This document shows, piece by piece, positions 12,001-18,000 of a DNA stretch of 64,000 bases (the stretch's first letter is position 1; the number at the start of each line of letters is the position of its first letter). Origin of the DNA: a virus (taxonomy: Duplodnaviria > Heunggongvirae > Uroviricota > Caudoviricetes). A program made the position numbers. The stretch is from IMG/VR virus record IMGVR_UViG_2703718819_000007; one strand, written 5' to 3'.

Positions 12001-15000
12001 GTGAAACAGCAGGTAACGAATTCATCAATATCTTTCACAGCAACGCGCCGCCATTTTTCTGGTGGCTCTCGAAAGTTTTCATGAAGTAGCTCGAGACGAC
12101 GACTATGGCGTTTATTGGCTTCATTGCCATCTTCGTCAACCCAGACAATCCGGTCATGGTCATAATCAGCATCAACAACGATTTCGCGCTTTTGATACAC
12201 ACAAAACATGGGATCTGACGTTATTCGATTGTCCTGTGTTCGAATATTTTCACCGATGATGCCAAACGAATCTGGTGCAGATTTTGTCTGCATCTCTTCG
12301 ATACGTTCAGCCATCGCAGCACACTCTTCAAAGTTGCTTAATGCTTTTCGCTCCCATTCGGCGCATTGTTTTTCCAGTTCTGCTATGCGCTTACTTCCAT
12401 CCGCGATTACTCCCTCGTAATATTCACGCTGCTCGTTGAGTTTTGATTTTGCTGTTTCAAGCTCAACGCGCAGCTTCCCTACCGTAAGCGCAATATCCTC
12501 GTTCTCCTGGTCGCGGCGTTTGATGTATTGCTGGTTTCTTTCCCGTTCATCCAGCAGTGCCAGCACGGTAGCCGGATTGGCTGCGGCGATGAATTCAGCA
12601 TTGGCCTGCTGTTCCATTTGGAAATCTTCATCGAAACCGCTTTCAGGATGTGCTCCTTCAATTCTGCAAATGGGAATATATCCAGCAGCCTCGCGATGAA
12701 TTAGTGCATCATCACCATCAAATCGGTTCTCTCCATATTCGAGCGACCACTCACCACGCGTTGCTTTTTCTGCCTTTTCACGCAGTACCTGATAGTTAAT
12801 CTCGCTCATTTTTCTCTTCGCTCCGGTATACAAGAATTACAACGTCACCTCTGCTAATTACGCGAGCTGGATCTCCTGGCTCCATGCTGTCAATCCCGAA
12901 GGCTTCGGAAAACGCATTCATTGCCTTCTGGCGTTGATCCTGCTTACGGCATTTATTCCATTTTTTCAGTAACAACAGCGATAGCCACCGCCCGGCGCAG
13001 AACATAATGTAAAAATAACCAAGAAGCGCCAGACCTGTGTTGAGGGCCGTATCGATCGTTATAGTGGTGTCTATGCTCACTTCACACCTCTCTGTTTGTT
13101 GATAAGTTCAATATCCTGCTGGCAACTGGCGCAAGTTCGGCATCCGCGAACAGCCTGGCGTCGCCGCTCATCTATCGGATCGCCACACTCGCAACAATGA
13201 GTAGCAGATGGGGCATTACTTTCGGATTTGTATTTTTGCAGGGAGAGATTGCGCTGCAATTCTTCGATTTCAGCGGCATTGTCGATGATATCTGCCATTT
13301 TCCTTTCCTTCAGGCATGAAAAAAGGAGCCGAAGCTCCTTTGGTATCAGAATTCAAATTGTCTTGCTCTTAGTTGCGCTAGCATACTTCTGGCCCTATGC
13401 ACCATATAGTTGGCGGGATCAAGTTTTGCTGCTTCGCGGAGCAATGTGTCGCGAGTCCGGTTGGTTATATGACGAGTCTCGTAGGCCAGATCAAACAGTT
13501 TCCCGTAGTAATCAGAATTCAGTTCTCTCATGACGGGGTATAGCTGCTTACTGAGTTGTTGTGCTTTTTCCATCCAGAGTTGAACGTAGCAGAGCAGGAT
13601 GATGTCTTCTGCTGTGAATTGCTGCTCAGTTTGTACTGGCTGAATGTTGCGAAGTTTCTTTTCGCACTCGATGAAGTATCGGCGTATCTGGCGGCCTTTT
13701 TCGTTACGTTCAACCATCGCAAGCTCTTTGGCTGTGTCGAGGGTGAGGTGGTAATCCTTGCGGCGGCGGCCTGGAGTTTTCGCCAAATTTGGCGAAAATA
13801 GAATGTAGTCTAAATTTTCTACGAATCCATACTCGTTTAGCTTGGCCCGTATCCAGTTAGAAAAATCTTTACCTACCTCTAAAAATCCATGCAAATCACG
13901 CGCGTTCACCAGAAGCGTAGGTTCATTTGAGATTGTACCTTCAAACACAGGGATGAGTTGAGTGGTCATGATGACCTCCTTTGGCTTTTTTCGAGAAATG
14001 CCACCACAAAATGTGGTGCCGGGAGGCTCGAAACGGCCCAAAAGATACCGCGGACTTATTCCCCTTGCGGGTGTTGTATTCGTCGCCCTCCCGACATTGA
14101 TCGGGGATGTGACCGCACACTGTGCTATCACTGAATAACAGGCATAAAAAATCCAACACTGACGGGGTTGGTTTAATCCGCTTTTGGGAGGTTTTCGAGG
14201 CCTCGGCGCGGAGTATAGTCAGTATTGGACGCAGTCGTCAACCATCGCCGTTTCTTTGGCTGTGTCGAGGGTGAGGTGGTAATCCTTGCGGTTGTGACCG
14301 CCTCTACCAGATGTTTGCTTTCCCAAATTGGAAAGCAAAATATAGTCTTGATTTTCAATGAATTCGTATTCTGAAATGCGATTTGTAATCCATGCCGCAA
14401 ACACCTTTTTCACGCCTAAAAAAGCATGCAGATCGCGGGCATTGCAGAGTAGGGCTGTTTCGTTGTCGATAGTGCCGTTGAATACGGGGATGAGTTGATT
14501 AGCCATAATTATGACTCCTGACGTTTTAGTATTGACTGCCACCTTAGTGGGGTGGCGGGCTTCAACTACCGCGTCAGACGGCGGAGCGTATTTCCCGAAA
14601 GGGTATTGTATTAGGCTCTCTCGACCCGCCATTGATATGGCGATACCTGTAAACAGGCATAAAAAAGCCGCAAAGCTATCGGGTGCGGTTGACCGCTGAC
14701 GTTGTAGTGCAGTCAGTATGCGATAGCTCTGGCAGATTTGTCAAATCGTGCAGTAACATCCTTTTCTTCCTTGCCATTTCTCAATGATGACAAAGGGTGG
14801 ATTCGGATTGGTATTGGGACAAAAGTGAGACACACAAAGCTTTGCATCGGCTTACAAAGCTTTGCATGTTTTTCAATGTTGGGACGTGTGAGCGCAGAAA
14901 TGACGGGCTATCTAATTGATTTTAAACGATACGTAACCAACTTTAAAATCTTTGCACGCCAGTTCGCAGGTTTTACAGCCAGTACAGCGGCTGGAATCGA

Positions 15001-18000
15001 TAAAAAATCCATATTGTGTGGTCATGGGCTACTCCTTAAACCTTTTCGATCTGGACAAGATTGCTGTGCGACGGGTTTCCCTTTGCCAGCGGTGAAGGGC
15101 GGTGAGAGGTCAGAATATTGATACTGCCGCCGTGATCGACCCGGTCACCAAACATATCCGCTTTAAGCCACGCACCTTGCCCGATGGCGGTAACGCCAGG
15201 CAGAATACGCGGAGTCACTTTTGCGGCAATCAGCATTTCTCCATTATTGTTAAATACCCGCACGGTATCGCCATGACGGATACCGCGTGCCTGAGCATCA
15301 ATGGGGTTGATCCACACCTCTTGTGGGCAGGCCTGCTGTAACACATCAATATTGCCGTAGCTGGAGTGGGTACGCGCTTTGTAGTGGAAGCCCGTTAACT
15401 GCAGTGGATAGGTTTTCCGCAGGGGATCGTCCCAGCCATCAAAACCTGGGGTATACGCAGGAAGGGGATGAATAATTTCATCTTTTTTCAATTCCCAGGT
15501 ATCTGCAATCTTCGCCAGTCGTTCAGAATAAATTTCGATTTTCCCCGAAGGTGTTTTCAACGGGTTTGCCTGTGGATCTTCACGGAATGCGCGGAAAGCG
15601 ACGTAGTGTTCTTCCGGGCATTTTTTCTTAAAGATCCCGGTCGTTTTCATCTCCTCGTAGTCGGGCATCTCAGGGTTACGTTCCTTCGTTTTCGCATGGA
15701 GATATTTGATCCATTCATGCTGACTGCGACCTTCAGTAAAGGTTTGATAAACGTCTGGTCCTAAGCGTTTGGCGACTTCACTCAGCATCCAGTAGATGGG
15801 TTTGCGTTCAAATTTTGCTGAGGTTGCGGGTTGGGCGAGGATCACATAGCCCATATTCCCTGCAGATTCATGAGAGATAAGGTCTTCTTGCTCTGTTGGC
15901 ATCAGGTCGGGCAACAGGATATCGCAATACTTAGCCGAGGCCGTCATGAAGTGGTCAATGCCAACAATCATCTCGCACTTGCTGTCATCCTGAAGCACCT
16001 CATGGGTGTGATTGATGTCGCCATGTTGATTGATCAATGTGTTACTGGCGTAGCACCATAAAAACTTGATGGGGACATCCAGTTTTTCTTTTCCACGAAC
16101 ACCATCACGGGTCGCGGTCATTTCCGTACCATGGTCGATGGCATCTGTCCATGTAAAGACGGAAATCTGCGTTTTAACAGGATTCTCAAGCATCGGGAAC
16201 CATTCTACCCCCAGATCCCAGCTACCTTCGCGTACACCTGAGTTGCCGCCGTTTATGCCGACGTTACCGGTGAGAACGGAAAGCATGGCAATAGCGCGGG
16301 ACGTTTGCTCGCCGTTGGAATGTCGTTGTGGCCCCCAACCCTGACAAATATAAGCAGGTTTTGCTGAACCGATCTCTCGTGCCAACTGGATAATTTTTTC
16401 TGCCGGGATGCTGGTGATTTTTGCTGCCCATTCCGGCGTTTTAGCTATGCCGTCAGGCCCTTCGCCCAGAATATAGGCTTTATAATGCGCGTTACGTGGT
16501 GCGTTGGCGGGCAGCGTTTTTTCATCGTAACCAACACAATATTTGTCGAGAAATGGCTGATCGACCATGTTTTCAGTAATCAGTACCCAGGCAATCGCAC
16601 AGGCCAGTGCGCCATCGGTGCCAGGGCGAATGGGCAGCCATTCATCTTCACGCCCGGCAGCAGTGTCGTTATAACGTGGATCGATGACGATCATGCGTGC
16701 GTTTGAACGTTCGCGGGCTTGCTCGACGTAGTAAGTGACACCACCGCCGCTCATCCGCGTTTCTGCCGGGTTATTTCCGAACATAACGACCAGTTTCGTA
16801 TTGGCGATATCATCCGGGCTGTTGCCATCATTGGCACCGAACATATAACTCATTGCGGCACTGATCTGTGCGGTACTGTAGCTGCCATAGCGACTGAGAA
16901 AACCACCGCAAGAGTTCATCAGACGGTACGGGACGTTTGAGTTGGTGATGTTTCCGCCATCTACGCCTGTTCCGTACAGGACATGTACAGCCTCATTGCC
17001 GTAATCTTTCAGGATCCGCCGAAGATTATCACTGATGGTATCCAGGGCTTCGTCCCAACTTATCCGTTCAAATTTACCTTCACCGCGCTTGCCGACGCGC
17101 TTCATGGGATATTTCAACCTATCAGGATGATTCATCCGTCGGCGGATAGAGCGCCCGCGTAAACACGCTCGAACCTGATGGTTACCGTAGACGTCGTCAC
17201 CTGTCGTATCAGACTCCACCCAGTACACGGTGTCATCTTTCACATGCAAACGTAACAGACAGCGGCTCCCGCAGTTAACGGTGCAGGAACTCCAGACCGC
17301 TTTCTCTTCTACCGGAGCCTCTGCCGCCCGGACCATTTGGGAAAATGGCAGAGTGAAAGCACTGCTTGCCAGCGCAAGACTGCCAAGTGCGGAGGTTTTC
17401 ATCAGACTTCTACGGCTGATTTCAGCCTTCATGAGCGCCTCTGTGGTATGGATTTTCATCATTACTCACTTATTGCTTTTCAAACAAAATGTCATGCCAG
17501 AATTTATGATTGTCGTGGGTTATATTTTTTCGATCTCGACCAGATTAGTGTGCTGCGGGTTTCCCTTCGCCAGTGGTGAAGGGCGCAGAGTGGTTAGCGT
17601 ATTCACACAGCCGCCATGGTCGATTTTATCGCCAGACATATTGGCCTCGTGCCAGGCTCCCTGGCCCATAGCGCTAACTCCAGGGAGAATACGTGGTGTT
17701 ACTTTGGCTGGTAGCCGAACTTCGCCACGATGGTTAAACACCCGCACCATATCGCCGTTGGCAATCCCACGTTTCTGCGCATCTATAGGGTTGATCCACA
17801 CCTCCTGACGGCAGGCAGCCTTCAGGAGATCAATATTGCCGTAGGTCGAGTGAGTACGGGATTTGTAATGGAAACCAAACAGTTGCAGTGGGAAGGTTCT
17901 ACGTTCAGGGGAGTCCCAGCCTTCAAAGGTAGAGGCATAAACTGGCAGTGGGCTTATCACTTCATCTTTTTCCAGTTCCCAGGTACGGGCAATTTCCGCC

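What the first reader, a model, noticed from the sequence alone, without database searches (positions are those of the whole stretch)
14833..15025. ynfG truncated at a mobile-element junction, with a palindrome pair at the element end
ynfG retains only its first 28 codons before unrelated sequence, so the Fe-S subunit of the YnfEFGH oxidoreductase is disrupted here. About 70-100 bp away lie two copies of ACAAAGCTTTGCAT (a CAAAGCTTTG palindrome), a plausible operator pair or recombination-site remnant at the element boundary. Whether the 3' part of ynfG, ynfH and dmsD survive beyond the element cannot be seen.
Basis: seen in the sequence. Interest (0 to 1): 0.45.

Follow-up and report, generated by a model that had tools for sequence, protein, structure and literature searches.

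The report
Prophage attachment junction inside ynfG
This is the right-hand attachment junction of a Shiga-toxin-type prophage that inserted into the ynfG gene, a published insertion site, and the "palindrome pair" is a conserved part of the phage's own recombination site, so the finding is real but ordinary.

Summary
ynfG keeps 85 nt (28 codons plus 1 nt, window 15025..14941, minus strand) and then runs into foreign DNA. Two exact copies of ACAAAGCTTTGCAT lie at 14834-14847 and 14854-14867.

The foreign DNA is the integrase-distal end (attR, P arm) of a roughly 63-kb POCJ13-like, 933W-type prophage. In the nearest complete genomes this prophage carries stx1a. In those genomes the other end holds a P22-family integrase and excisionase, next to the remaining 540 bp of ynfG and intact ynfH and dmsD. 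The 7-bp core TTTAAAG is present at both junctions. ynfG is a published Stx1-phage integration site.

The repeat pair is not an operator for the neighbouring ant genes. It travels with the integrase module: P22-like phages such as ST64T carry almost the same sequence at the same place in attP, beside different genes. It lies in an interval between GTC(C/T)CA integrase arm-type sites. That interval is exactly 48 bp in 70 P-arm variants from 19 sequence clusters and shows a 10-bp phased T/AAA pattern.

The best reading, which is inferred, is an excisionase-binding and DNA-bending array. In this lineage the pair also forms a 17-bp dyad, which the phage L and epsilon34 records annotate as a terminator (epsilon34: for int). 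Novelty is low.

The parts
14941..15025 (-). 5' fragment of ynfG (85 nt, 28 codons plus 1 nt), directly downstream of an intact ynfF (15036-17462, minus strand)
   Evidence: It is 100% identical to K-12 ynfG up to 14941 and unrelated beyond. RefSeq annotates the same fragment as a partial 4Fe-4S binding protein in strain S19-651.
14941..14947 (-). att core TTTAAAG (CTTTAAA on the plus strand), the only sequence shared by attB, attP and both prophage junctions
   Evidence: Compared K-12 attB, the window junction and the integrase-side junction of JNEC-KY179. The circular record of phage 75/02 Stx ends ...AACCAACTTTAAAG and restarts TTGTTGCTC....
14909..14921 (-). IHF-like site AATCAATTAGATA (12 of 13 to WATCAANNNNTTR), between the core and the first arm-type site
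   Evidence: TCAA-N4-(T/A)TA sits at the same fixed offset from the arm-type site in P arms that have unrelated cores. Several match the full consensus, for example AATCAACCAATTA in L023. Assigning it to IHF is inference.
14880..14885 (-). Core-proximal integrase arm-type-like site GTCCCA
   Evidence: The motif is invariant in every P arm recovered (partly because it was part of the search anchor). The same hexamer recurs twice in the P arm and twice in the P' arm inside the 3' end of int, all in one orientation.
14832..14879 (-). 48-bp interval between arm-type sites, a 10-bp phased array (wTGyAAr units) that contains the two 14-mers
   Evidence: The interval is exactly 48 bp in 70 of 70 P-arm variants from 19 clusters. 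T is conserved at every tenth column and AAA tracts fall in phase; the A-content autocorrelation peaks at lag 10 with r = 0.57.
14854..14867 (+). Repeat copy nearer the core: ACAAAGCTTTGCAT (ATGCAAAGCTTTGT on the minus strand)
   Evidence: ST64T has ATGCAAAGCCTTGC at the homologous place.
14834..14847 (+). Repeat copy farther from the core: ACAAAGCTTTGCAT
   Evidence: ST64T has the identical ATGCAAAGCTTTGT at the homologous place.
14830..14869 (-). 17-bp dyad with a 6-nt loop, formed by the two copies plus flanking bases, and more stable as RNA on the int-sense (minus) strand
   Evidence: The scan flags it as terminator-like. Folding gives -22.5 kcal/mol (z -5.0) on the minus strand against -16.7 (z -3.1) on the plus strand. 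The homologous element is annotated as a terminator in the phage L and epsilon34 records.
14815..14831 (-). Tandem distal arm-type-like sites GTCTCA (14831-14826) and GTCCCA (14820-14815), 11 bp apart
   Evidence: GTC(C/T)C(A/G)-N5-GTC(C/T)CA is conserved in all 19 clusters. A matching tandem pair, TGTCCCAAATTTGTCCCA, lies in the P' arm.
14735..14947 (.). Block that is 100% identical in POCJ13, 75/02 Stx, PhiR5_2 and the window while DNA to its left has diverged; this marks the extent of the attP P-arm module
   Evidence: Alignment A2.
14715..14744 (-). Sigma-70-like promoter (TTGACA, 18 nt, CATACT) facing the ant genes; it bounds the att module and is not part of it
   Evidence: It is largely conserved in the diverged phages.
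14219..14506 (-). Short AntA-domain gene (95 aa), the first gene inside the prophage end
   Evidence: Pfam AntA, E 1.8e-24. It corresponds to POCJ13 gp79.
13346..13969 (-). Antirepressor Ant (207 aa; AntA plus P22_AR_C domains)
   Evidence: Pfam. It corresponds to POCJ13 gp78.

Best explanation
Window 14941-14947 is the attR junction of a lambdoid, 933W-type prophage (POCJ13 / 75/02 Stx group). In the nearest complete genomes this prophage is about 63 kb and carries stx1a. It integrated into ynfG by site-specific recombination at the 7-bp core TTTAAAG, using a P22-family tyrosine integrase.

Integration split ynfG. The first 85 nt stay with ynfE and ynfF on this side. The remaining 540 bp, with ynfH and dmsD, lie beyond the integrase at the far end of the prophage, outside this window.

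The roughly 130 bp next to the core is the P arm of attP. In order it holds an IHF-like site, one arm-type integrase site, a 48-bp interval, and two tandem arm-type sites. The two ACAAAGCTTTGCAT copies fill most of that interval.

My reading is that the interval is the binding and bending array for the phage excisionase, a P22 Xis homologue. On this view several Xis molecules bind head to tail with helical phasing and bend the arm, so that integrase bound at the arm sites can reach the core during excision. This would parallel lambda's X1-X1.5-X2 filament.

What is shown: the junction, the core, the module's identity and conservation, the fixed spacing and the phasing. What is inferred: which protein binds the interval. 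The perfect palindromes are a feature of this lineage only, not of the family.
For: - Junction and split gene.
- Frequency: the same junction occurs in 79 of 5,426 complete E. coli genomes.
- Published site: PMC5447701 cites Gray 2014 for POCJ13 and Toth 2016 for 75/02 Stx. PMC10562709 reports the Stx1a prophage of RM10410 within ynfG.
- Integrase: 71-73% identical to the ST64T and SfII integrases.
- Excisionase: full-length match to PHROG 2907 at E 1e-43, and it aligns along its length with the P22-type Xis of ST64T.
- The repeats follow the integrase module, not the neighbouring genes. ST64T attP has ATGCAAAGCCTTGC-aagccg-ATGCAAAGCTTTGT at the same position next to gtrA. In all, 125 phage records match this P-arm stretch.
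- Architecture: the 48-bp interval is invariant in length in 70 variants from 19 clusters, flanked by conserved GTC(C/T)CA sites, with 10-bp periodic T and AAA.
- An IHF-like site sits at a separate fixed position, which leaves the interval free for another factor.
- The lambda precedent, three Xis molecules bending the P arm between H2 and P2, is described in PMC4880445.
Against: - No binding data were available. The P22 Xis footprinting paper (Mattis 2008, PMC2519534) is not held, so the match between this interval and the published footprint rests on my memory.
- The Xis helix-turn-helix region and the interval sequence do not co-vary tightly. L118 has nearly the same recognition region as P22 Xis but a different interval. 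L119 has a diverged Xis with an SfII-type interval.
- Fis, or intrinsic A-tract bending alone, could explain the phasing.
- The window holds only one end of the prophage. The integrase, Xis, the P' arm and the rest of ynfG are inferred from near-identical genomes, not seen in this genome.
Confidence: 0.8

Rival explanations
1. The pair acts at the RNA level. Together the two copies form a 17-bp hairpin on the int-sense strand. In the circular or infecting phage this hairpin lies just downstream of int across attP. It would terminate int transcripts, or act like lambda's sib/tI retroregulator. In the prophage it is detached from int and faces read-through from ynfF-ynfG'. This reading is compatible with the DNA-level role and could coexist with it.
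For: - The hairpin folds at -22.5 kcal/mol with z -5.0 on the minus strand, against -16.7 with z -3.1 on the plus strand. Four G-U pairs exist only on the int-sense strand.
- The scan flags it as terminator-like.
- Across 60 distinct P arms the 17 pairs are 70% paired, against 64% in shuffles (0 of 500 reach the observed value) and 21-52% when the partners are slid. Several pairs change on both sides, for example CG:28 / UA:12 / GC:4.
- In the SfII class the direct repeat has decayed to about 9 of 14 matches by eye, but the hairpin is kept at -21.5 kcal/mol.
- The phage L and epsilon34 records annotate the element as a terminator; epsilon34's note reads 'for transcription from int'.
Against: - The dyad is present in only 6 of 19 clusters. 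The other 13 have about 6 or fewer Watson-Crick pairs of 17.
- Where the dyad is present, the favoured strand is inconsistent. L021, the L040 class and L129 fold better on the antisense strand.
- The U tract after the stem is weak and displaced (CUCACUUUUG).
- Covariation of a dyad cannot separate an RNA hairpin from a symmetric DNA site.
- The strict 48-bp length and the helical phasing are not explained by a hairpin.
Confidence: 0.3
2. The repeats are CII (P22 C1)-type activator sites, TTGC-N6-TTGC, for a promoter firing towards the core.
For: The epsilon34 GenBank record marks two overlapping 'putative CII-binding sites' on the homologous sequence. ST64T and P22 read TTGCATCGGCTTGC and TTGCAAGGCTTTGC on the plus strand.
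Against: - In the window both sites carry a mismatch (TTGC-N6-TTAC and TTAC-N6-TTGC).
- By my reading of the sequence, the hexamers at the expected distance are TTTTTC and TTGGGA, neither a usable -10. The scan reports no plus-strand promoter-like site at the repeats.
- Such a promoter would run antisense to int.
- The TTGC pattern is absent from most of the 19 clusters.
Confidence: 0.04
3. The repeats are an operator pair for a dimeric repressor that controls the adjacent antirepressor (ant) operon.
For: Each copy contains a perfect 10-bp palindrome, the copies are two helical turns apart, and ant genes lie next door.
Against: - The only strong promoter-like site for ant is at 14744-14715, about 90 bp from the nearer copy, so the pair does not overlap it.
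- The same repeats occur in P22, ST64T, L and epsilon34 attP next to gtrA, with no ant gene nearby.
- Phages that share this ant region but integrate at another site, such as wrbA, match only up to query base 554 (window about 14753), so they lack the repeat-bearing block.
- Palindromy is not conserved across the family.
Confidence: 0.03

Closest known systems
Stx1a-converting Shigella/E. coli phages POCJ13 and 75/02 Stx (Sepvirinae, Diegovirus) and the Stx1a prophage of E. coli RM10410, all integrated in ynfG
   Same: The prophage end is 99.2% identical to POCJ13 over the last 741 bp of the prophage end. The P arm is identical, the gene order at the end is the same (LPD38 giant ORF, DUF551, Ea22-like, DUF4752, TraR, Ant, AntA), and the host target is the same.
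   Different: Nothing of substance differs at the junction. The window does not show the stx region, so toxin carriage in this particular genome is inferred. This genome also has a separate island in ynfE.
Bacteriophage P22 site-specific recombination module (Int, Xis, attP with arm-type, IHF and Xis sites; Smith-Mungo 1994 and Mattis 2008, recalled from memory because neither paper is held)
   Same: The integrase is 71% identical and Xis is about 70% identical. The P arm is homologous from the proximal arm-type site to the distal tandem sites, including the repeat pair, which differs at only two bases, both in one copy. There are five GTC(C/T)CA sites, three in P and two in P'.
   Different: The core and its immediate flanks are unrelated. 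P22 uses the 3' end of a tRNA gene (thrW, from my own knowledge; the phage L record marks a tRNA-like fragment there), whereas this phage uses TTTAAAG inside a protein-coding gene. The neighbouring cargo also differs (ant genes versus gtrABC).
Lambda attR P arm: H2, then X2/Fis-X1.5-X1, then P2
   Same: The logic is the same. An IHF bend lies near the core, followed by a helically phased array of small-protein sites next to an arm-type Int site, and it is needed only for excision (PMC4880445). The two-helical-turn period of the strongest repeats resembles X1/X2; that period is from my memory.
   Different: There is no sequence similarity. The excisionase belongs to a different family (about 120 aa, HTH_17). 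An extra arm-type site lies between the IHF-like site and the array. Lambda's int terminator, sib/tI, lies outside the P arm (from memory), whereas here the dyad is inside it.

Membership tests
Prophage att junction made by a heterobivalent tyrosine integrase | Host sequence identity stops at a short core that is repeated at the other end of the element | tested here: met
   Identity to K-12 ynfG ends at 14941. TTTAAAG is present at this junction and at the integrase-side junction of JNEC-KY179. The second junction was seen only in related genomes, not in this window.
Prophage att junction made by a heterobivalent tyrosine integrase | A tyrosine integrase gene (with an excisionase) lies next to the opposite junction | tested here: met
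   A 387-aa integrase (Pfam Phage_integrase, E 1.5e-45) and an overlapping HTH_17 / PHROG 2907 excisionase lie beside the 3' part of ynfG in L003, and in phages POCJ13, 75/02 Stx and PhiR5_2. They lie outside the window.
Prophage att junction made by a heterobivalent tyrosine integrase | Arm-type repeats distinct from the core, present on both arms | tested here: met
   GTC(C/T)CA occurs three times in the P arm (window) and twice in the P' arm, all in one orientation. The sites are conserved in 19 clusters. Binding by Int was not tested.
P22-family attP P arm | Homology of the arm to the P22-type attP arm at the same position relative to int | tested here: met
   ST64T, SfII, phage L, epsilon34 and P22 match window 14809-14911 at 84-87% identity.
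Excisionase (RDF) binding array | Direct, helically phased repeats in the arm used for excision, next to an arm-type site | tested here: met
   The fixed 48-bp interval shows 10-bp periodic conservation, and the strongest repeats are 20 bp apart.
Excisionase (RDF) binding array | Demonstrated binding or bending by the cognate Xis | not testable with these tools
   This needs EMSA or footprinting. The published P22 Xis footprint could not be read. The covariation test between Xis and the interval was inconclusive.
Intrinsic terminator or sib-like retroregulator of int | A stable stem-loop on the int-sense strand followed by a U tract, conserved by compensatory change | tested here: inconclusive
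   The stem is strong in this lineage and covariation exceeds the controls. However, the U tract is weak, the dyad is absent in 13 of 19 clusters, and the strand bias is inconsistent.
CII/C1 activator site | TTGC-N6-TTGC straddling the -35 position of a promoter with a usable -10 | tested here: not met
   The window has one mismatch in each candidate site. By my reading the hexamers at the expected distance (TTTTTC, TTGGGA) are not usable -10 elements, and the scan reports no plus-strand promoter-like site there. The pattern is not conserved.
Operator of the ant operon | Overlaps the regulated promoter and co-occurs with the regulated genes | tested here: not met
   The pair lies about 90 bp from the promoter-like site. 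It co-occurs with int/attP and not with ant.

The most novel reading that the evidence does not exclude
One 40-bp stretch may do two jobs in this lineage. As DNA it would be the excisionase-binding array of attR. As RNA it would be a hairpin on the int-sense strand that terminates or destabilises int transcripts in the attP state. After integration the same hairpin would insulate the prophage's ant operon from read-through out of the host ynfEF-ynfG' operon. That would put a lambda-sib-like retroregulator inside the P arm rather than beyond it.
Probability: 0.2. Interest if true: 0.35.

Novelty: already known. Interest (0 to 1): 0.12.

Why it matters
The practical value lies in annotation. It identifies the left 15 kb of the window as the end of a POCJ13-type prophage, probably Stx1a-converting, at a documented integration site. 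It also shows that the ynfEFGH selenate-reductase operon is broken in this strain.

The comparative result is a tidy description of P22-family attP architecture. The interval between arm-type sites is always 48 bp and helically phased, and the IHF-like site sits at a fixed position. This could guide att-site prediction for this integrase family. It does not change what is known about how such sites work.

Tried and rejected
1. Operator for ant. Rejected because the repeats track the integrase module and do not overlap the promoter.
2. CII-binding promoter, as annotated in epsilon34. Rejected because the window's sites are mismatched, there is no usable -10, and the pattern is not conserved.
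3. IHF site at the repeats. Rejected because a better IHF-like motif sits at a separate, fixed position nearer the core.
4. Tight Xis-versus-interval covariation as proof of Xis binding. The test was run on contiguous int-xis-attP loci and gave no clear correlation, so it neither supports nor excludes Xis.
5. A universal RNA hairpin. It is found in only 6 of 19 clusters.
6. Reading the primary P22 att papers. Mattis 2008 is not held, by DOI or PMC id, and library searches found no paper giving the P22 site map.
7. Solved structure for the excisionase. There is no relative in the PDB.
8. Rfam match for the repeats. Only a sub-threshold mir-19 hit appeared, which I take to be chance.
9. The hairpin plus T-run in the ant leader as a significant structure. 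The z-score is -0.8, so it is not significant.
10. The 81% resemblance of the core/attB stretch (14941-14956) to the repeat unit. I treated it as probably chance.

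
Full report
**Observation**

On the minus strand ynfF (15036-17462) is followed by the ynfG start codon at 15025. Alignment with E. coli K-12 shows perfect identity down to window 14941 and no similarity beyond.

The 14-mer ACAAAGCTTTGCAT occurs exactly twice in the window, at 14834-14847 and 14854-14867, 20 bp apart. No 3' part of ynfG lies anywhere in the window.

**What the element is**

The same junction is present in 79 of 5,426 complete E. coli genomes. In strain S19-651 the DNA to the left is annotated as the end of a phage. The gene order is tail tip fiber, Lom, a giant LPD38 protein, DUF551, Ea22-like, DUF4752, TraR, then Ant and AntA antirepressor genes abutting the ynfG fragment.

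In strain JNEC-KY179, which is 99.8% identical across the junction, the prophage runs for about 63.5 kb. It carries stx1a, a 933W-type late region and lambda-like early genes. It ends with a 387-aa integrase next to the remaining 540 bp of ynfG, followed by intact ynfH and dmsD.

Free-phage records POCJ13 (99.2% identical over the last 741 bp of the prophage end), 75/02 Stx and PhiR5_2 have the same ends. ynfG is a published integration site for exactly these Stx1 phages (PMC5447701, which cites Gray 2014 and Toth 2016). It is also the site of the Stx1a prophage of strain RM10410 (PMC10562709).

**The junction itself**

I compared attB in K-12, the junction in the window and the integrase-side junction. 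The only shared sequence is TTTAAAG (window 14947-14941). The circular 75/02 Stx record gives attP as ...CGTAACCAA-CTTTAAA-GTTGTTGCTC....

This is a 7-bp crossover core, not a transposon target duplication. The window holds the integrase-distal junction, which corresponds to lambda's attR and its P arm.

**The recombination module**

- The integrase is 71-73% identical to the integrases of ST64T (a P22-like phage) and SfII.
- An ORF overlapping the start of int has an HTH_17 domain.
- That ORF matches PHROG 2907 'excisionase' over its full length at E 1e-43.
- It aligns end to end with the P22-type Xis of ST64T.

**What the repeat pair is**

Among POCJ13, 75/02 Stx, PhiR5_2 and the window, the block 14735-14947 is 100% identical while DNA further left has diverged to roughly 75%. 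The block therefore behaves as a module that travels with the integrase.

ST64T has an unrelated, tRNA-derived core, and gtrA lies next door instead of ant. Its attP nevertheless carries ATGCAAAGCCTTGC-aagccg-ATGCAAAGCTTTGT at the same place, flanked by the same GTCCCA motifs. In all, 125 phage records match this stretch, among them P22, L, epsilon34, SfI, SfIV, SfV and HK542.

I anchored a scan of IMG/VR on the neighbouring conserved 16-mer rather than on the repeats themselves. It returned 120 loci. After discarding five sequences that lack the distal sites, these gave 70 distinct P arms in 19 sequence clusters. The following held across them:

- The interval between the proximal GTCCCA and the distal tandem GTC(C/T)C(A/G)-N5-GTC(C/T)CA is exactly 48 bp in every case.
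- The interval shows T at every tenth column and AAA tracts in phase. The A-content autocorrelation peaks at lag 10 with r = 0.57.
- In the window the interval reads as 10-bp units: ATTGAAAAAC, ATGCAAAGCT, TTGTAAGCCG, ATGCAAAGCT, TTGTGT... The 'palindrome' arises where a unit ending in AAAGC meets one starting with TTTG.
- An IHF-like motif (AATCAATTAGATA, 14921-14909) sits at a separate fixed position between the core and the first arm-type site. Better consensus matches occur at the same offset in other clusters.
- Two further GTCCCA sites lie in the P' arm, inside the last codons of int.

The resulting layout is: core, IHF-like site, arm site, 48-bp phased array, two arm sites. In lambda, the phased array beside an arm-type site in the P arm is where three Xis molecules bind and bend the DNA for excision (PMC4880445). 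I therefore read the interval as the binding and bending array for the P22-type excisionase. This step is inference.

**Caveats and rivals**

I could not read the P22 Xis footprint paper. The Xis recognition region and the interval sequence do not co-vary cleanly.

*RNA hairpin.* The two copies also form a 17-bp hairpin that is more stable on the int-sense strand (-22.5 kcal/mol, z -5.0, against -16.7, z -3.1). The scan flags it as terminator-like. The phage L and epsilon34 records annotate the homologous element as a terminator (epsilon34: for int), and epsilon34 also marks CII-binding sites there.

Pair counts across 60 distinct arms exceed both the shuffled and the slid controls. However, the dyad exists in only 6 of 19 clusters, and its strand bias is inconsistent. 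A terminator or sib-like role is therefore possible in this lineage, in addition to the DNA-level role. It cannot be the conserved function of the interval.

*CII site.* This reading fails. The sites carry mismatches, there is no usable -10, and the pattern is not conserved.

*ant operator.* This reading fails. The pair lies about 90 bp from the promoter-like site at 14744-14715. It is present in phages that have no ant gene nearby.

**Verdict**

The mobile-element interpretation is right and can be made specific: it is the attR of a POCJ13-type prophage, probably Stx1a-converting, in a known site. The repeat pair is a conserved working part of a P22-family attachment site, not an operator or a remnant. 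Both the insertion site and the kind of att architecture are already known, so interest is low.

Noticed in passing
window 17523-26657: ynfE is also interrupted. Its C-terminal part (17523-18686, minus strand; Molydop_binding domain) and its N-terminal part (25203-26657, minus strand; Molybdop_Fe4S4 and Molybdopterin domains) are separated by an island of about 6.5 kb. The island encodes a 540-aa tyrosine integrase (18612-20234, plus strand) and at least four ORFs with no Pfam match. The ynfEFGH operon is therefore hit twice in this strain. A similar island is present in 79 complete genomes. RM10410 is the best match at 97%, with extra IS66 copies. S19-651 has the ynfG prophage but an intact ynfE.
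   Followed up: partly
window 14546-14630 and 14010-14095 (minus strand): Two Rfam sRNA-Xcc1 (RF02221) matches lie here. One scores 74.5 bits, above the 53-bit gathering score, and the other scores exactly 53 bits. Each sits in the leader just upstream of one of the two AntA-domain antirepressor genes. The family was described from Xanthomonas integron cassettes (PMC2996969) and is mentioned in a comparative-genomics paper on APSE phages. Its role upstream of ant genes is unexplained.
   Followed up: partly
window 14655-14744 (minus strand): A strong promoter-like site (TTGACA, 18 nt, CATACT) is followed about 30 nt later by a small hairpin plus T-run (CCGCA...TGCGGCTTTTTT). Both stay conserved in 75/02 Stx and PhiR5_2 although the surrounding leader has diverged. 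This could be a short RNA or an attenuator ahead of ant. The fold itself is not significant (z -0.8).
   Followed up: partly
window 32018-64000: A second lambdoid prophage starts right after rspB. It has a 431-aa integrase (32018-33313, minus strand), a large exonuclease (33657-36128, minus strand), then dicB/ydfD-type genes in the related genome, and what look like late genes (terminase- to tail-sized ORFs) further right. It lies in the region where the Qin prophage sits in K-12 (from my own knowledge).
   Followed up: no
window 1597-10017 (plus strand): A single 2,806-aa ORF lies near the prophage end. The related genome annotates it as an LPD38 domain-containing protein. I did not examine it.
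   Followed up: no
window 14941-14956: The core plus adjacent host ynfG sequence (CTTTAAAATCTTTGCA) is 81% identical to the P-arm repeat unit (CTTACAAAGCTTTGCA). This is probably chance, but it is curious for a site chosen by this integrase.
   Followed up: no
loci L118, L119 and L067 (IMG/VR contigs): The P-arm interval sequence and the excisionase type are shuffled relative to each other. L118 has a near-P22 Xis recognition region but an unrelated interval sequence. L119 and L067 have an SfII-type interval but an integrase only 52-53% identical and a Xis only 38% identical to the ynfG phage. This suggests either loose Xis specificity or recombination within att modules.
   Followed up: partly
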